Positions 42,242 through 47,657 of a stretch of 64,000 nucleotides of DNA are shown piece by piece. Each line of letters begins with the position of its first letter. Positions within the stretch are counted from its first letter, which is position 1. A model generated the notes under the pieces. That model was not told where the DNA came from. It saw nothing but the letters and a program-made list of their open reading frames with translations, and did not search any database. The translations under genes were made by a program, and so were the position numbers. Location of the stretch: contig JAHDCC010000006.1 of NCBI GenBank assembly GCA_020630065.1, positions 61,695 to 125,694 of the forward strand. Direction: 5' to 3'. Source of the DNA: Acidimicrobiales bacterium (lineage in GTDB: Bacteria > Actinomycetota > Acidimicrobiia > Acidimicrobiales > SZUA-35).

Positions 42242-42317
42242 TTGACAAAGAACTAGCAGGTGATTTGACAAGGTTTCGACAAGTTCTGAACGAAACCGAA
42301 AATTGTGTGTTGACAAG
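42242..42317 (+). promoter_or_regulatory. Four phased TTGACAA-type motifs
   Basis: TTGACAAAG (42242), TTGACAAGG (42265), TCGACAAGT (42276) and TTGACAAGA (42310), spaced 23, 11 and 34 nt apart (about 2, 1 and 3 helical turns). Confidence 0.4.
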
Positions 42318-42490
42318 AGAAATAAGACAACACCCAGGTCCGGCTGTCGTCCATTGCTGAGGCTCGACTTGGTCTCGAACGGCTCGATCTTTGTAGCTTG
42401 CTGTCTGGAACTGCGTGGAATTGAGTGTTATTGTTCAGCTGATGACATAACGTCCCTGCAGGTAGCGGGACGTTCGGGGAAGGCCTAAAT

Positions 42491-42742
42491 ATGATCCGAA
42501 GACCGCTAATTTTGGGGTTCGCATTTGGTGTTTTTGCAGTCCTTTTGGCTCCACCGCCAGCCGAGGCACAGGCTTCTTTGGGGCTCAAAGCCGGTGTACC
42601 TGATCTCTCCGAAACGGTAATCGAAGTAGAAGACGAATCTCCTGTCGGGTTTTTCTGTAGATGGACTCCTTGGTGCGATCCGGAGGGAGAGCTGAACTCC
42701 CCGGGGCAACGTGAAATATCTGCCTACGTCGTTCAACCATAG
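42491..42742 (+). CDS. Small secreted protein (83 aa) with a C-x5-C motif
   Basis: Signal peptide MIRRPLILGFAFGVFAVLLAPPPAEA|QA. The mature part contains FFCRWTPWCDPEG. The 3' end overlaps the kinase GTG by 32 nt. Confidence 0.55.
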   Translation: MIRRPLILGFAFGVFAVLLAPPPAEAQASLGLKAGVPDLSETVIEVEDESPVGFFCRWTPWCDPEGELNSPGQREISAYVVQP

Positions 42743-43952
42743 AAAGAGCGTCACCCAAACCCACGGCAAGAACGTAGCCACGCTCGCCGCTTTTTGGGTT
42801 GTGGATCTGATCTTCTTCGATCCGACAGTTAGCGGTGGCGCCCTTCCCCGCTTGGTTTGGCCGTTGCTCGGTGCGGCAACTTTTGTTCCACTCTTTTGGC
42901 GGCACAAATACCCTTTGTTTGTGTACGCAGCGTCCATAGGCATAACAACGCTTCTGCAAGTTGGCGCAGTCGGTTACCGACCGATGGTTGCCGTGTGGGT
43001 GGGCTTGTACACGATTGCGTCGGTAAAAAATTGGCGCACGACCGCAGTCGCTGTCTCTGCGACTTTTGTGCCTGGTGCGTTTTTCGTGGCTGACGAGATT
43101 TTGCAAACTAACGAAGACGAGATCGTTACGGCTGTTATAGCCACGGTAGTAGGGCTCGCCGTAGTTGAAGTGTTCGTAGTTTTGGCTGGATGGCTAAAGC
43201 GCTCATACCGTCATCGCCTGCGTGACTTGTTGGGCCGCCAAGCCCACGAGCAACGACAAGCCGTAGCTGAGGAGCGTTCGCGGATTGCCCGAGAGTTGCA
43301 TGACATCGTCGCCCATTCCGTGTCACTAATGTCGTTGCAAGCTGCGGGCGCAGCGCGGGTTCTTCGTTCCGACCCGGAACGTAGCCAAAGATCTCTGGAA
43401 CAAGTTTCAGAGATCGGTGAGTCCGCTATCAGTGAACTTCATCGAATGCTCGAGTTCCTCGATGCCTCTGAAGAGTCGGTCGATGTAGAAGTGTTAACCG
43501 ACAACGTTATGGACCGTCTTGACGGGCTCCTTGACGGTTTCAGAAGTGCTGGTCTCCAGGTTGACTTGTTGGTTGACGGCACTCCAGCCGACTTGGACAT
43601 AAGTATCGGGAACACTGTTTATCGGGTAGTGCAAGAGGCGCTAACCAACGCTCTAAAACATGGATCTCGAAACGGTCGACCTGTAGCCGTTGGTTTGCGG
43701 TGGACCGAATCGGAGCTTACGATACAGGTCCGGAACGACCTTGGTGACGGCAAGAGTCGAAAGCCAGGTACCGGACGGGGCCTTAACGGCCTGATCGAAC
43801 GAGTGCATACGTTGGGCGGATCATTCGATGCCGAAATAGACTCCGGCCAGTTTGTCGTAACTGCCGTGGTGCCCGTCAGAGCGGCGGCAACGTTGCCGAC
43901 CATCGATCTAACCGATGACGACCAAGACAGCGAGCCGAGTTCCGTTGTCTGA
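42711..43952 (+). CDS. Sensor histidine kinase, HisKA_3 (NarL-partner) class
   Basis: About 5 N-terminal TM helices, H-box ERSRIARELHDIVAHSVS, N-box EALTNALKHG and G-box GTGRGLNGLIERV. Confidence 0.9.
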   Translation: MKYLPTSFNHRKSVTQTHGKNVATLAAFWVVDLIFFDPTVSGGALPRLVWPLLGAATFVPLFWRHKYPLFVYAASIGITTLLQVGAVGYRPMVAVWVGLYTIASVKNWRTTAVAVSATFVPGAFFVADEILQTNEDEIVTAVIATVVGLAVVEVFVVLAGWLKRSYRHRLRDLLGRQAHEQRQAVAEERSRIARELHDIVAHSVSLMSLQAAGAARVLRSDPERSQRSLEQVSEIGESAISELHRMLEFLDASEESVDVEVLTDNVMDRLDGLLDGFRSAGLQVDLLVDGTPADLDISIGNTVYRVVQEALTNALKHGSRNGRPVAVGLRWTESELTIQVRNDLGDGKSRKPGTGRGLNGLIERVHTLGGSFDAEIDSGQFVVTAVVPVRAAATLPTIDLTDDDQDSEPSSVV

Positions 43953-44631
43953 GCTGATCCGTGTGGTGGTTGTGGATGATGAGGCGCTCATCCGTGAGGG
44001 TATTTGTATGTTGTTATCCGATGAGGCTGACATCGAGGTGGTCGGTTCTGCCGGCGACGGTGCCTCTGCCATCTCGTTGGTTCGAGCAGAACAACCCGCA
44101 GTGGTTGTCATGGACATACGTATGCCTGAAATTGATGGCATGGAAACCACCCGACGGCTGCTGGCAGAAGAGTCGAACGACGTTGTGGTTCGGGTGCTTA
44201 TGTTGACAAGTTTTCATGAAAAGCGAGCCATTCACACTGCGCTGCGCAACGGCGCCTCGGGGTTCTTACTCAAGAGCGGAGCGCCGCGAAACCTAGCCGA
44301 AGCTATTCGCCACGTTGCGCAAGGAAACGCCTGGCTGGACCCGATCGTGACCCGCCAGCTGCTAGCCGACTTTGTTGACCGTTCCGACCCCGACCTGCCG
44401 ACGCCTGACGAGTTCGCTCGCCTAACGGCTCGCGAAAAAGAAGTGTTGCTGCTACTTGCACAAGGCTTAGGAACATCAGAAATTGTGCAGCATCTGACTA
44501 TCAGCGAAGCAACAGTCAAAACCCACATATCGAGGACTCTCCTCAAATTAGGTTTACGAGATCGGGCTCAAGCGGTCGCTGCTGCGTACCGAAGCGGTTT
44601 CGCCCAACCCGACACACCGCCCCTTCGGTAA
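43915..44631 (+). CDS. Response regulator, NarL/LuxR family
   Basis: Receiver domain (VVVVDDE...DIRMPEIDG...K) and LuxR HTH (LTAREKEVLLLLAQGLGTSEIVQHLTISEATVKTHISR). The start may be a few codons later. Confidence 0.92.
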   Translation: MTTKTASRVPLSELIRVVVVDDEALIREGICMLLSDEADIEVVGSAGDGASAISLVRAEQPAVVVMDIRMPEIDGMETTRRLLAEESNDVVVRVLMLTSFHEKRAIHTALRNGASGFLLKSGAPRNLAEAIRHVAQGNAWLDPIVTRQLLADFVDRSDPDLPTPDEFARLTAREKEVLLLLAQGLGTSEIVQHLTISEATVKTHISRTLLKLGLRDRAQAVAAAYRSGFAQPDTPPLR

Positions 44632-44799
44632 AAAGTACATCAAACGAGGTACCCAGGTGTCTGCGGTACCGCTTTTGACGTTGCACATAAACCAGTCGTA
44701 GGGCTGACGACTCCGCCGCCTCGGTGTTCGATAATCGTATTTGACGGCGTACTTCTAGGCCGGTCGATTGAAGAGAGCTCATATGAAAGGTAACCAGCG

Positions 44800-46792: not shown

Positions 46793-46915
46793 CACCAAGT
46801 TTGGCGAGCGATTCGGGAAGTAATCGACGAATCTAGCTCACTTTGCCATATGGCGGCATTCCATCCACTCGCAACTCGAGTGGTGGAGTGCTGTCAGAGA
46901 CGTCCAACGACACTA

Positions 46916-46977
46916 CCGCGGCTCATGCTGTTCGCCGCAACCACCTACGCAGTCGTTCCGGTAGTCGGTTTCGGTTG
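46916..46977 (+). pseudogene. Duplicated remnant of the 3' end of the 45401-46360 membrane-protein gene
   Basis: 55 of 62 nt are identical to 46169-46230 by manual alignment. It then joins directly to cataaccaaccaa, so about 124 nt present in copy 1 (46232-46355) are missing. Confidence 0.7.
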
Positions 46978-47013
46978 CATAACCAACCAACAACAAGTGA
47001 AAGGTATTACGCA

Positions 47014-47547
47014 ATGACATCAAAACCATTGACATCAACACGTACGCCCAACATCGGTGACATCGACGACGGTGGCGAGCCGCCAAACAAGGCCGGTGTC
47101 CTGAAGCGGTTAGTGGGGCTAGTCGCACTAACCGCTATGTTCGCCAGCGTTTTCCTTGCTGCGACGACGGGTCCCTCAGCTGCTGATTGGAGAGAAGAAT
47201 GTGTTGGCGAAGGCTGCTCGGGTGAGGAGAAAAAAGAGTTGTACCGGAGTTTCCGGAATGAGTGTGTGTATGAGAAGTGTTGGGCTGAGGAGGTCGGCGA
47301 ACTTGCTGGGACAGGAGTAAATTCCAGCGGACGGTATAACAACCCTTCTCTGGTTTTAGAGATGATGAACGATTTCCAGTCTCGTAGTGGATACGACGCC
47401 TGGCAGGTCGAGGTTCGACCTGGTAAAACCAACACCTTCTTTGACAGAGCTTGGCGAGAAATCCTAGCGTTCTTCGATGGGCGAGTAGTCGGGTTTAGCT
47501 GCGACTTTGATGCAGGTACCGGCTACGTCGGCAACTGCGGTCTTTGA
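47014..47547 (+). CDS. Exported Cys-rich protein, paralog B (two C-x4-C pairs plus a C-terminal extension with 2 more Cys)
   Basis: LVGLVALTAMFASVFLAATTGPSAA|DWREECVGEGCSGEEKKELY...NECVYEKCWAEEV. Listed ORF 46843-47547 is over-extended; ATG 47014 aligns with the paralog A start. Confidence 0.65.
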   Translation: MTSKPLTSTRTPNIGDIDDGGEPPNKAGVLKRLVGLVALTAMFASVFLAATTGPSAADWREECVGEGCSGEEKKELYRSFRNECVYEKCWAEEVGELAGTGVNSSGRYNNPSLVLEMMNDFQSRSGYDAWQVEVRPGKTNTFFDRAWREILAFFDGRVVGFSCDFDAGTGYVGNCGL

Positions 47548-47573
47548 AAGCAATCTGAATAACTCGGGTATTT

Positions 47574-47657
47574 GACGGCATTCCACTTACTCACTCGTTC
47601 CGAGCTGCGTTCCTTCAGACTGGAAGTAACCCGAAACTTGGGTGGTGGAATGCCGTC
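47574..47657. other. Long-range perfect 13-bp inverted repeat (structured element or bidirectional terminator)
   Basis: gacggcattccac (47574-47586) pairs with gtggaatgccgtc (47645-47657) around a 58-nt interior. A degenerate, shorter copy follows paralog A (about 46851-46900). Confidence 0.5.

What the first reader, a model, noticed from the sequence alone, without database searches (positions are those of the whole stretch)
42242..47657. Two-component-linked locus with a signal-peptide mini-protein, two membrane proteins and duplicated C-x4-C exported proteins: candidate peptide production or maturation system
All genes are co-oriented. Four phased TTGACAA motifs come first. Next is an 83-aa secreted protein whose 3' end overlaps the GTG of a HisKA_3 kinase, followed by a NarL/LuxR regulator. 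After those come a 199-aa single-TM protein (WKGGGFGMFSTID) and, 1 nt later, a roughly 7-TM protein. The block ends with two paralogous exported proteins that share ADWREECV.E.CSG.EK.EL...NECV.E.CWAEEV after an AxA-type cleavage site. I cannot place the 83-aa, 199-aa or Cys-rich products in any family I know. The polytopic protein has DNHQYL...FATFWK patterns that remind me of HTTM/SdpB-type membrane proteins. The order accessory protein, polytopic membrane protein, exported disulfide-capable protein parallels Bacillus subtilis sdpABC. Local duplication of the exported gene is typical of toxin or effector loci.
Basis: partly seen in the sequence, partly recalled or inferred. Interest (0 to 1): 0.75.

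Follow-up and report, generated by a model that had tools for sequence, protein, structure and literature searches.

The report
Bacterial vitamin-K-carboxylase-like system with Gla-like proteins
Two membrane proteins that together look like a split, very divergent version of the animal vitamin K-dependent glutamate carboxylase sit next to two secreted proteins whose core resembles the Gla domain of blood-clotting factors, so bacteria may carry out a protein modification so far known only from animals.

Summary
In detail: seven co-oriented genes, a promoter-proximal TTGACAA cluster, a HisKA_3/NarL pair, a single-pass protein, a polytopic protein and two paralogous exported Cys/Glu-rich proteins.

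SdpAB membership fails.

- **Polytopic protein.** No Pfam hit. Its model matches only human gamma-glutamyl carboxylase (GGCX): Z 12.5, about 210 residues. Profile comparison with canonical HTTM gives E 1.4e-5. The counterparts of GGCX N159, H160, K218, W223, D263 and F299 are conserved in 34 homologues from many phyla.
- **Accessory gene.** It carries an invariant WKGGGFGMFS motif and lies directly upstream of the polytopic gene in all 26 loci examined.
- **Exported proteins.** They consist of a signal peptide and two tandem EEC-x2-EGC-S-x-EE-x2-EL units. Pfam Gla is hit weakly by 44 of 48 family members. A profile of the module finds Gla domains as its nine best PDB matches.
- **Linkage.** Starting from the Gla-like gene, 12 of 19 metagenomic loci carry the membrane pair next to it. 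Other lineages have different small secreted Glu-rich genes there.

Best reading: a menaquinone-dependent, split GGCX-like enzyme that modifies, probably gamma-carboxylates, these secreted proteins. No chemistry is shown. All Gla matches are below curated thresholds. The genome has no VKOR.

The parts
42242..42329 (+). Cluster of TTGACAA-type motifs upstream of the first gene: exact copies at 42242, 42265 and 42310; variant TTCGACAA at 42275; TAAGACAA at 42322. Spacing is about 11, 23 and 34 bp.
   Evidence: The same three copies with the same spacing occur in the sister genome L056. TTGACA is also the sigma-70 -35 consensus. No function was tested.
42491..42742 (+). 83-aa protein with a signal peptide and a conserved VGFFCRW-x-PWCDP motif. 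It is an orphan, possibly a secreted peptide signal.
   Evidence: Only one homologue exists in 5.8 billion proteins, in the sister genome. Its C-terminal half differs by an indel and a changed tail.
42711..43952 (+). Membrane sensor histidine kinase (HisKA_3 plus HATPase_c).
   Evidence: The N-terminal ~160 residues (sensor) are about 71% identical to the sister genome, against 98-100% for the rest. The true start may be downstream of the listed GTG.
43915..44631 (+). NarL/LuxR-type response regulator.
   Evidence: Response_reg 2e-24 and GerE 1e-16; NarL equivalog model 2e-41, below its cut-off.
44800..45399 (+). Accessory subunit: N-terminal TM helix (residues 13-40), invariant loop W45-K-G-G-G-F-G-M-F-S54, then a ~140-residue alpha/beta domain predicted to lie outside the cell.
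   Evidence: Model pLDDT 86. The family has 142 hits and no Pfam match. It lies directly upstream of the polytopic gene on the same strand in all 26 loci examined. The motif is invariant or nearly so in 31 sequences.
45401..46360 (+). Polytopic membrane protein: a divergent HTTM/GGCX-like catalytic subunit with N107, H108, K151, F157, E231 and F275.
   Evidence: Model pLDDT 87. VIA-align gives Z 12.5-10.9 to 14 human GGCX entries. hhalign against canonical HTTM gives E 1.4e-5. There is no Pfam or NCBIfam hit.
46391..46792 (+). Gla-like exported protein A (133 aa): signal peptide plus two tandem E-E-C-x2-E-x-C-S units. It is a truncated paralogue that lacks the C-terminal Cys pair.
   Evidence: Pfam Gla E 0.018. 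It is retained at 99% identity in the sister genome, with 1 nonsynonymous and 5 synonymous differences.
46793..46860 (+). Out-of-frame remnant of the 3' coding end of copy A.
   Evidence: DNA alignment of the two duplication units.
46916..46984 (+). Duplicated fragment of the 3' end of the polytopic gene (residues 257-279, 74% identical). It is a scar of the tandem duplication.
   Evidence: locus L007; A1 hit in WIN 6793-7014.
47011..47547 (+). Gla-like exported protein B (about 178 aa, full length): signal peptide, two Gla-like units, a middle region and a C-terminal C-x(n)-C tail.
   Evidence: It has the same length and tail as the homologues in L001 (172 aa) and L004 (178 aa). Pfam Gla E 0.3.

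Best explanation
The core of the locus (44800-47547) encodes a two-subunit, extracytoplasmic-facing membrane enzyme of the HTTM / vitamin K-dependent carboxylase superfamily, together with its secreted protein substrates.

Proposed mechanism:
1. The polytopic subunit binds reduced menaquinone (bacterial vitamin K2). Its invariant lysine (K151, counterpart of GGCX K218) starts oxygenation of the quinol to a strong base.
2. The N107/H108 pair (counterpart of N159/H160) holds a substrate glutamate, which is deprotonated at the gamma carbon and carboxylated.
3. The single-pass accessory protein supplies the missing outside-facing part of the enzyme. Its invariant WK-GGGFG-MFS loop would sit at the active site.
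4. The two exported proteins are translocated by Sec. Their invariant glutamates around two C-x4-C loops are converted to gamma-carboxyglutamate, giving small calcium- or mineral-binding proteins.
5. The upstream kinase/regulator pair, perhaps with the 83-aa secreted mini-protein as signal, probably controls expression in this lineage only.

Shown here: fold, profile similarity, conservation of catalytic counterparts, strict pairing of the two membrane genes, linkage to Gla-like or Glu-rich secreted genes, and the presence of MenD (a menaquinone-pathway gene).

Inferred: cofactor use, the chemistry, which residues are modified, complex formation and regulation.
For: **Fold.** The 14 best structural matches of the polytopic model are all human GGCX: Z 12.5-10.9, rmsd 3.7-4.0 in 13 of the 14 (7.0 in one), 206-220 residues, 14-17% identity, model 38-~296 on GGCX 60-~319. 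The next match scores Z 9.0, then 6.5 or less. In Foldseek the only rows with TM about 0.47 and probability 0.99-1.0 are GGCX.

**Profile.** hhalign of the family (A1) against canonical bacterial HTTM proteins (A6) gives probability 80%, E 1.4e-5 over 183 columns. Those canonical proteins match GGCX at E 1e-51.

**Catalytic residues.** Chaining the two alignments puts N107/H108 on N159/H160, K151 on K218, D156-F157 on D222-W223, E231 on D263 and F275 on F299. The roles of these GGCX residues are described in PMC12647623. In 34 homologues from at least 8 phyla the counts are N 34/34, H 34/34, K 34/34, aromatic 34/34, E 31 plus Q 3, and F 32/32.

**Pairing.** The accessory gene lies directly upstream on the same strand in 26 of 26 loci.

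**Substrates.**
- 54 family representatives share a signal peptide plus a tandem module with eight invariant residues (E54, C55, E58, C60, E64, E75, C76, C81).
- 44 of 48 hit Pfam Gla, best E 7.6e-5.
- A 56-column profile of the module searched against 177,635 PDB sequences returns Gla domains (factor IX, factor X, protein C, prothrombin) as the top 9 of 13 hits, E 0.04-0.4. The invariant Glu and Cys fall on Gla and Cys positions.

**Linkage.**
- Of 19 metagenomic loci found with the Gla-like module alone, 12 carry the accessory and/or polytopic gene next to it.
- L015 and L016 carry a one-unit variant (EECAEGCD-x-EE).
- The cyanobacterial loci and L029 carry Cys-free, Glu-rich small secreted genes in the same position. 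This argues that glutamate, not cysteine, is the common target.

**Other.**
- Purifying selection: between two near-identical genomes, nonsynonymous:synonymous differences are 1:11 (accessory), 4:11 (polytopic), 1:5 (copy A) and 5:8 (copy B).
- MenD is present at 393 bits.
- A 2026 preprint independently models a DUF5819 (one TM plus domain) and HTTM pair as a GGCX-like complex. It cites MloH as a bacterial vitamin K-dependent carboxylase.
Against: - No biochemical evidence of any kind.
- All Gla matches are below Pfam's gathering score (15.6 bits against 27). They could reflect convergence of a Glu-rich helix with a C-x4-C loop.
- The polytopic protein fails the Pfam HTTM model outright. By the tool's own calibration, a Z of about 12 for a helical bundle is not decisive alone.
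- The accessory protein has no significant similarity to the GGCX lumenal region (Z 4.0, rank 23), to the C-terminal part of canonical HTTM proteins (hhalign E 0.36) or to DUF5819 (E 0.14).
- The exported proteins have no propeptide between the signal-peptide cleavage site and the module. Animal substrates need one.
- No VKOR is found in the 95%-complete genome, so no known route recycles a menaquinone epoxide.
- The pair occurs in many genomes without any Gla-like gene: 5 of 5 genomes searched whole. In 15 of 23 genome loci no candidate substrate gene was seen nearby.
- From memory, not checked here: the one bacterial full-length GGCX orthologue studied (Leptospira) was reported to epoxidise vitamin K without carboxylating.
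Confidence: 0.5

Rival explanations
1. The pair is a quinone-dependent HTTM enzyme that acts on the neighbouring secreted proteins but performs a different modification from gamma-carboxylation. Candidates are carboxylation at another carbon or residue (as MloH does on aspartyl), base-driven epimerisation or cross-linking, or epoxidase chemistry with a different acceptor.
For: - The superfamily evidence is the same as above.
- MloH shows that bacterial members can act on non-Glu substrates.
- The preprint's DUF5819-HTTM model has a blocked substrate channel and an alternative opening, which suggests different substrate handling.
- There is no propeptide in the exported proteins and no VKOR.
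Against: - The residues that hold the Glu carboxylate (N159/H160) and stack CO2 (F299) in GGCX are as conserved as the quinol base K218.
- The neighbouring genes in unrelated lineages share only being secreted and Glu-rich.
- The invariant Glu positions coincide with Gla positions of clotting factors.
Confidence: 0.2
2. This is an SdpAB-like export, processing or disulfide-forming system. The membrane pair helps secretion, cleavage or oxidative folding of the C-x4-C proteins, which act as antimicrobial peptides or effectors. No Glu modification occurs.
For: - The window's gene order (accessory, polytopic, exported Cys protein) parallels sdpABC. SdpB is an HTTM protein, and the PF05090 control rings in B. 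subtilis.
- One family member gives weak MauE (4e-4) and DoxX_3 (6e-3) hits. From memory, these families are linked to thiol or quinone chemistry.
- The exported genes are duplicated locally.
Against: - The SdpA and SdpB models find nothing in the genome at E<=1, although they ring in B. subtilis.
- Cyanobacterial and Halobacteriovoraceae loci pair the same enzyme with Cys-free secreted proteins.
- Invariant conservation of the whole GGCX catalytic set is unexplained by an export role.
- No immunity-like gene was identified in the locus.
Confidence: 0.15
3. The Gla resemblance is convergent and the exported proteins are unmodified metal- or calcium-binding proteins. The two C-x4-C pairs could form disulfides or a four-Cys metal site. 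They are co-located with, but not substrates of, a membrane enzyme whose real substrate is a lipid or small molecule.
For: - Gla matches are sub-threshold.
- Most pair-bearing loci have no recognisable protein substrate nearby.
- From memory: acidic Cys-containing modules can bind metals without modification.
Against: Twelve of 19 loci found with the module alone carry the pair immediately adjacent, in two different gene orders and in several GC classes. That is hard to explain without a functional tie.
Confidence: 0.1

Closest known systems
[quoted passage not shown]
   Same: - The transmembrane fold matches (Z 12.5, about 210 residues).
- Counterparts of K218, N159, H160, W223, D263 and F299 are conserved.
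- The active side faces away from the cytoplasm.
- The substrates are secreted proteins with E-E-C-x2-E-x-C-S-x-E-E-x2-E spacing, as in the Gla-domain core with its C-x4-C disulfide loop.
- The host carries MenD, so it probably makes menaquinone, which is vitamin K2.
   Different: - 14-17% identity and no Pfam HTTM hit.
- The enzyme is split into a 319-aa membrane core and a separate 199-aa single-pass protein, instead of one 758-aa chain with a large lumenal clamp.
- No propeptide in the substrates.
- The Gla-like unit is duplicated in tandem and lacks the N-terminal omega-loop region.
- No VKOR partner in the genome.
- No activity is shown.
Bacterial DUF5819 + HTTM gene pairs (AlphaFold 3 complex model, bioRxiv 10.64898/2026.08.19.745780)
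   Same: - The accessory protein has one N-terminal TM helix plus a ~150-residue domain. It is encoded directly upstream of the HTTM-type gene.
- A W-K...[L/M]-F-[A/S] motif follows the TM helix in both (comparison by eye).
- That complex was proposed to resemble whole GGCX.
   Different: - No Pfam DUF5819 match in any of 54 accessory homologues or in the genome. hhalign gives E 0.14.
- The polytopic partner here lacks the DCC-like C-terminal domain described there.
- The preprint names no protein substrate. Here a Gla-like substrate family is linked.
Bacillus subtilis SdpA/SdpB/SdpC
   Same: An HTTM-superfamily membrane protein, a small accessory protein and an exported Cys-containing protein in one operon. 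The order in the window is the same.
   Different: The SdpA (TIGR04034) and SdpB (TIGR04033) models do not match. The exported proteins are unrelated to SdpC. Gene order varies among homologous loci. No immunity or signalling genes of the sdpRI type were seen.
MloH, the vitamin K-dependent carboxylase orthologue of malonomycin biosynthesis (Law et al. 2018, as cited)
   Same: A bacterial HTTM-family enzyme with demonstrated carboxylase chemistry. It shows that the chemistry exists in bacteria.
   Different: MloH is a fused single chain that acts on an aspartyl residue of a polyketide-nonribosomal peptide intermediate in a biosynthetic cluster. Here the enzyme is split, the candidate substrates are ribosomal secreted proteins, and no PKS or NRPS genes are nearby.

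Membership tests
HTTM / vitamin K-dependent carboxylase superfamily (Pfam PF05090) | Match to the Pfam HTTM model above its gathering score | tested here: not met
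   No Pfam family at E<=1 for the window protein or any of 12 homologues. PF05090 finds nothing in the genome at E<=1.
HTTM / vitamin K-dependent carboxylase superfamily (Pfam PF05090) | Profile-level homology to canonical HTTM proteins | tested here: met
   hhalign A1 against A6: probability 80%, E 1.4e-5, 183 columns. A6 members match PF05090 at 72-320 bits. One of them (L008) matches GGCX at 1e-51.
HTTM / vitamin K-dependent carboxylase superfamily (Pfam PF05090) | Transmembrane fold of GGCX | tested here: met
   VIA-align Z 12.5-10.9 to 14 GGCX entries, rmsd about 3.7-4.0, 206-220 aligned; the next unrelated row is Z 9.0 and then 6.5 or less. Foldseek TM 0.47, probability 0.99-1.0, for GGCX rows only. 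Caveat: helical bundles can reach Z of about 13 by chance.
HTTM / vitamin K-dependent carboxylase superfamily (Pfam PF05090) | Catalytic residues of the membrane domain (K218 base, W223, D263, N159/H160, F299) | tested here: met
   Transitive alignment maps them to K151, F157, E231, N107/H108 and F275. Conservation in 34 homologues is 34/34, 34/34 aromatic, 31 E plus 3 Q, 34/34 for each of N and H, and 32/32. Residue roles come from PMC12647623.
HTTM / vitamin K-dependent carboxylase superfamily (Pfam PF05090) | Lumenal (outside) domain that contributes Y395 and M401 and binds the substrate | tested here: inconclusive
   The accessory protein has the right topology and a W..MF loop after its TM helix. 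However, GGCX 376-492 matches it only at Z 4.0, rank 23, and hhalign against the canonical C-terminal region gives E 0.36.
HTTM / vitamin K-dependent carboxylase superfamily (Pfam PF05090) | Quinol epoxidase and carboxylase activity | not testable with these tools
   Needs biochemistry.
Gla domain (Pfam PF00594) | Match to the Pfam Gla model above its gathering score (27 bits) | tested here: not met
   Copy A: E 0.018, 15.6 bits. Copy B: E 0.3. 44 of 48 family members hit, best E 7.6e-5, none above the cut-off.
Gla domain (Pfam PF00594) | Core pattern: Glu at the Gla positions around a C-x4-C disulfide loop (E-x-E-C-x-E-E-x-C-S-x-E-E-x-x-E) | tested here: met
   Profile A5 against PDB: the nine best hits are Gla domains. 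The alignments place the invariant E and C on factor IX residues 15-31 and protein C residues 6-30. Invariant columns are listed.
Gla domain (Pfam PF00594) | Propeptide between signal peptide and Gla region that docks on the carboxylase | tested here: not met
   The module starts between a few and roughly 20 residues after the end of the hydrophobic signal segment in the 48 sequences.
Gla domain (Pfam PF00594) | Presence of gamma-carboxyglutamate | not testable with these tools
   Needs mass spectrometry or amino-acid analysis.
SdpA/SdpB antimicrobial-peptide maturation system | Match to TIGR04034 (SdpA) and TIGR04033 (SdpB) | tested here: not met
   No NCBIfam hit for either protein at E<=1. 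Both models find nothing in the genome, while the controls ring in B. subtilis.
DUF5819-HTTM pairs | Match of the accessory protein to Pfam DUF5819 (PF19136) | tested here: not met
   None of 54 accessory homologues hit at E<=1. The genome search is empty. hhalign against four DUF5819 proteins gives E 0.14.
DUF5819-HTTM pairs | Architecture and position: one TM helix plus a ~150-aa domain, encoded directly upstream of the HTTM-type gene | tested here: met
   DUF5819 genes lie next to PF05090 hits in G064, G079 and G094.
NarL-type two-component system | HisKA_3 plus HATPase_c kinase, with a receiver plus GerE/LuxR regulator | tested here: met

The most novel reading that the evidence does not exclude
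Protein gamma-carboxylation of glutamate is not an animal invention. A widespread but patchy bacterial system makes genuine Gla proteins outside the cell, using menaquinone. It consists of a split HTTM-like enzyme plus small secreted Glu-rich proteins, and it is found in Acidimicrobiia, other Actinomycetota, Myxococcota, Cyanobacteria, Acidobacteriota, Bacteroidota, Planctomycetota, Proteobacteria and others. The tandem E-E-C-x2-E-G-C-S module would then be the prokaryotic relative or precursor of the metazoan Gla domain. That would fit the old idea that the HTTM domain was horizontally transferred.
Probability: 0.35. Interest if true: 0.9.

Novelty: new variant of a known kind. Interest (0 to 1): 0.8.

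Why it matters
Gamma-carboxyglutamate in proteins is known only from animals: clotting factors, osteocalcin and cone-snail toxins. Bacterial HTTM proteins are common, but with rare exceptions (MloH, a small-molecule pathway) their substrates are unknown.

This locus supplies a concrete, testable enzyme-substrate pair. All three gene families are annotated as hypothetical or carry no name wherever sampled.

If the modification is confirmed, it would:
- extend vitamin K-dependent protein carboxylation to bacteria;
- bear on the origin of the Gla domain and of GGCX;
- give a minimal two-subunit carboxylase for mechanistic and biotechnological work, such as making Gla proteins in microbes;
- open the question of what calcium- or mineral-binding secreted proteins do for environmental bacteria.

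If it is refuted, the family is still a conserved and unstudied branch of the HTTM superfamily with an obligatory partner subunit.

Tried and rejected
- **Direct sequence searches against PDB.** The polytopic protein and its family profile gave nothing. The single exported protein hit only a designed repeat protein.
- **Foldseek.** No hit at E<=1e-3 for either model.
- **Accessory protein.** pdb_via_wide gave a best Z of 5.7, to T-fold-like proteins. The ESM Atlas shape search found only unnamed clusters of its own kind. Language-model look-alikes were also unnamed.
- **Complex prediction.** A job with polytopic, accessory and mature exported protein returned 'no answer', score 0.00. It is reported here only and counts neither way.
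- **Alignment A2** was too diverse for the search for related loci. A 13-sequence core alignment (A5) worked.
- **Gla-like genes elsewhere.** Five pair-bearing genomes had none. The window's own genome has only the two copies in the window.
- **Substrate genes next to the pair.** A crude script scan of 16 further loci found no convincing Glu-rich secreted ORF. Small or oddly started genes may have been missed.
- **Relatives.** The polytopic gene was not found in 40 genomes of the same genus, family and order.
- **Literature.** Searches found no report of bacterial Gla-like proteins. The library lacks most subscription journals.
- **Toxin or bacteriocin reading.** Considered and not adopted. 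There is no immunity gene, no transporter and no similarity to known toxins. Nothing here excludes an antimicrobial role either.
- **Unpublished genome.** The tally includes genome G041.

Full report
**1. What is in the sequence**

Between 42242 and 47547 every gene is on the + strand.

- *Upstream motifs.* Three exact TTGACAA copies lie at 42242, 42265 and 42310. A one-base-insertion variant lies at 42275 and a TAAGACAA at 42322. The window as a whole has no excess of the heptamer (10 found, 9.7 expected). Three copies within 75 bp is nevertheless a real cluster, and it is conserved with identical spacing in a near-identical genome (L056).
- *Regulatory genes.* An 83-aa ORF with a signal peptide is followed by a HisKA_3/HATPase_c kinase and a receiver/GerE regulator.
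- *Membrane genes.* A 199-aa protein has one N-terminal TM helix. One nucleotide after its stop, a 319-aa polytopic protein begins.
- *Exported genes.* Two paralogous exported proteins follow, 60% identical, E 5e-57.

DNA alignment of the two repeat units and a stray 23-residue copy of the polytopic gene's 3' end at 46916-46984 show a tandem duplication of [3' end of polytopic gene + exported gene].

- Copy B (ATG near 47011, about 178 aa) is full length. It resembles the homologues in L001 (172 aa) and L004 (178 aa).
- Copy A (133 aa) has a frame break near 46785 and lacks the C-terminal Cys pair.
- Both copies are kept in the sister genome. Nonsynonymous:synonymous differences are 1:5 for A and 5:8 for B.

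**2. The polytopic protein is a divergent member of the vitamin K-dependent carboxylase (HTTM) superfamily**

Sequence libraries say nothing. There is no Pfam or NCBIfam hit, no PDB hit even with a family profile, and PF05090 finds nothing in the genome. Only 12 close homologues turned up in the word-indexed search.

An AlphaFold model built on them is confident: pLDDT 87, pTM 0.81.

- *Foldseek.* The only rows with a meaningful TM-score (0.46-0.48, probability 0.99-1.0) are human GGCX entries. All others have TM of about 0.2.
- *VIA-align.* The 14 best rows are all GGCX: Z 12.5-10.9, rmsd about 3.7-4.0, 206-220 aligned residues, 14-17% identity. Model 38-~296 lies on GGCX 60-~319, which is its membrane domain. 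The next row scores Z 9.0 and the rest 6.5 or less. The tool warns that helical bundles can reach such Z values by chance, so I looked for independent support.
- *Profile comparison.* hhalign against three canonical bacterial HTTM proteins (PF05090 at 72-320 bits) gives probability 80%, E 1.4e-5 over 183 columns. One of those proteins aligns to GGCX at E 1e-51. That alignment also gave me a tool-derived GGCX sequence with verifiable numbering.

Chaining the two alignments gives this mapping.

| Polytopic protein | GGCX residue | Role in GGCX (PMC12647623) | Conservation in 34 homologues |
|---|---|---|---|
| N107 / H108 | N159 / H160 | bind the substrate Glu carboxylate | N 34/34, H 34/34 |
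| K151 | K218 | base that deprotonates the quinol | 34/34 |
| F157 (with D156) | W223 (with D222) | W223 stacks on K218 | aromatic 34/34 |
| E231 | D263 | lies next to K218 | 31 E, 3 Q |
| F275 | F299 | stacks on CO2 | 32/32 |

The 34 homologues come from Actinomycetota, Myxococcota, Cyanobacteria, Acidobacteriota, Bacteroidota, Planctomycetota, Proteobacteria, Bdellovibrionota-like and Margulisbacteria MAGs.

The language-model search agrees in a weaker way. It finds unnamed clusters at 0.97 and an HTTM cluster at 0.83.

**3. The 199-aa protein is an obligatory partner**

Its family has 142 hits and no Pfam match. Each member has a TM helix, an invariant W-K-G-G-G-F-G-M-F-S loop and a variable alpha/beta domain.

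In every one of 26 loci that carry the polytopic gene, the accessory gene lies immediately upstream on the same strand, often overlapping it. In GGCX a TM helix is followed by W390...Y395...W399-D-M401-M, and then by the lumenal domain that closes the active site. The accessory protein has that layout.

The direct evidence is weak, however.

- GGCX 376-492 aligns to model 28-196 only at Z 4.0, rank 23.
- hhalign against the C-terminal half of canonical HTTM proteins gives E 0.36.

A 2026 preprint modelled DUF5819 proteins (one TM helix plus domain, encoded next to HTTM genes) as the missing clamp side of a GGCX-like complex, with a Leu-Phe pair touching the quinone pocket. In Actinomycetota genomes I find DUF5819 genes next to PF05090 hits, and they carry W-K-L-F-A-P after the TM helix. 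By eye this equals W-K-(GGGFG)-M-F-S-T here. Pfam and hhalign do not connect the two families.

I therefore treat the accessory protein as an analogue, possibly a remote homologue, of DUF5819 and of the outside-facing part of GGCX.

**4. The exported proteins are Gla-domain-like**

An exhaustive HMMER search found 54 cluster representatives. All have a signal peptide that is followed within a few to about 20 residues by [D/N]-Y-x-E-E-C-x2-E-G-C-[S/D]-x-E-E-[V/I]-x-E-L-[Y/W]-x-S-[Y/F]-x-E-E-C-x2-E-x-C-x2-E-E-[V/I]-x-E-L-[A/S]-G. This is two tandem units of about 21 residues. Eight residues are invariant: five Glu and three Cys. A further seven Glu and the fourth Cys are nearly invariant.

- Pfam's Gla model is the only recurrent hit: 44 of 48 members, best E 7.6e-5, all below the 27-bit cut-off.
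- A 56-column profile of the module, searched against all PDB sequences, returns 13 hits at E<=10. The top nine are Gla domains of factor IX, factor X, protein C and prothrombin, with E 0.04-0.4.
- In those alignments the bacterial invariant Glu fall on positions that are gamma-carboxylated in the clotting factors, and the C-x4-C falls on the Gla-domain disulfide loop.

Each match is individually insignificant. What counts is their exclusivity, their register, and the context next to a GGCX-like enzyme.

Differences from animal Gla domains: no propeptide, no N-terminal omega-loop segment, and a tandem duplication of the core.

**5. Linkage**

*Starting from the polytopic family in species genomes (23 loci).*
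- Gla-like genes are adjacent only in Actinomycetota: the window, L001 (which is the same contig as L014), and L004.
- Two Ilumatobacteraceae MAGs (L015, L016) carry, directly upstream of the pair, a 96-103-aa secreted protein with a single E-E-C-A-E-G-C-D-x-E-E unit.
- Three or four cyanobacterial loci (Prochloraceae, Mastigocoleus testarum twice, Geitlerinema) and a Halobacteriovoraceae locus carry small signal-peptide proteins there. These have very Glu-rich, Cys-free regions.
- In the other 15 loci I saw no candidate. Five pair-bearing genomes searched whole have no Gla-like gene.

*Starting from the Gla-like module alone in metagenomes (19 loci).*
- Twelve loci have the accessory and/or polytopic gene immediately adjacent, mostly in the order exported - accessory - polytopic, and in contigs of 40-76% GC.
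- Most of the rest are contig ends.
- L042 is a real exception. It has no pair within 5.6 kb upstream or 0.7 kb downstream.

So the Gla-like family is almost always tied to the pair. The pair has a wider distribution, with other or unlinked partners. What the recognisable partners share is secretion and glutamate richness, not cysteines. This favours a Glu-directed reaction over a disulfide or export role.

**6. Cofactor and physiology**

The genome (3.70 Mb, 95% complete) encodes MenD at 393 bits, so it probably makes menaquinone. It shows no VKOR and no MqnA. How an epoxide would be recycled is therefore open.

The pair is absent from 40 related genomes. Synteny with the sister genome ends right after copy B. 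The locus sits at the edge of a variable region.

**7. The regulatory module**

A HisKA_3 kinase and a NarL-type regulator also flank the pair in L015 and L016, in a different order. They are absent from L001 and from the other phyla.

The 83-aa protein has a single homologue, in the sister genome. Between these two genomes the neighbours are 97-100% identical. By contrast, the kinase's membrane sensor part is about 71% identical and the mini-protein's C-terminal half carries an indel and a new tail.

That pattern is what a co-diversifying secreted signal and its sensor would give. It is only a lead.

**8. Verdict**

It is wrong in its specific analogy, because SdpA and SdpB membership fails.

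The best-supported mechanism is a split, menaquinone-dependent GGCX-like enzyme that modifies its neighbouring secreted Gla-like proteins.
- Gamma-carboxylation is the most likely chemistry (confidence about 0.5).
- The broader claim, that the pair is an HTTM-superfamily enzyme acting on these proteins, has confidence of about 0.7.

No tool here can show the chemistry. Mass spectrometry after co-expression would settle it.

I found no description of such bacterial Gla-like proteins in the searchable literature.

Noticed in passing
window 42630-43200, compared with L056 8140-8740: Between two otherwise 97-100% identical genomes, the kinase's N-terminal ~160 residues (membrane sensor) are only about 71% identical. 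The 83-aa mini-protein differs by a 13-residue insertion and a different C-terminal tail, while its VGFFCRW-x-PWCDP motif is kept. This may be a co-diversifying secreted signal and sensor pair.
   Followed up: partly
window ~47562 onward, compared with L056 13143 onward: Synteny with the sister genome stops just after the second Gla-like gene. The window continues with a 306-aa membrane protein and a PadR regulator on the - strand (47723-49023). The sister genome has a type I restriction HsdR gene instead.
   Followed up: partly
window 44674-44680 and 44741-44747: Two TTTGACG motifs about 67 bp apart lie in the intergenic region upstream of the accessory gene. They resemble the TTTGACAA cores of the upstream cluster and could be regulator sites or -35 elements.
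   Followed up: no
L020 3761-4126, L021/L022 3855-4133, L023 3890-4165, L029 2719-3465: Cyanobacterial and Halobacteriovoraceae loci carry small signal-peptide proteins directly upstream of the accessory and polytopic pair. These have extremely Glu-rich (and Arg-rich), Cys-free regions. From memory, Mastigocoleus testarum is a carbonate-boring cyanobacterium, which would fit calcium-binding products.
   Followed up: partly
L030 4307-7124: A Bacteroidia MAG has two accessory-plus-polytopic pairs in tandem.
   Followed up: no
L034 3256-4971; L040 269-5771: In a Pirellulaceae MAG the accessory domain is the C-terminal third of a 572-residue open frame, which may be a fusion. In L040 the polytopic gene is on the opposite strand, separated from the Gla-like gene by an S41 peptidase gene, and the Gla-like module lies in a 345-residue frame.
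   Followed up: no
P0036 and P0045: A 1813-aa protein matched the exported protein in seven stretches, mainly to query residues 9-55. P0045 (250 aa) appears to carry more than one module set. Multi-module or fused forms of the family may exist.
   Followed up: no
window 40817-41893: An OmpA-family protein has a region that matches the N-terminal ArfA/OmpATb model (E 4e-12). It is followed by a 94-aa membrane ORF. Both are conserved in the sister genome and lie just upstream of the locus.
   Followed up: no
own genome G000: No VKOR (PF07884) and no canonical HTTM (PF05090) were found in a 95%-complete assembly. MenD is present, so the classical menaquinone pathway is probably there.
   Followed up: yes
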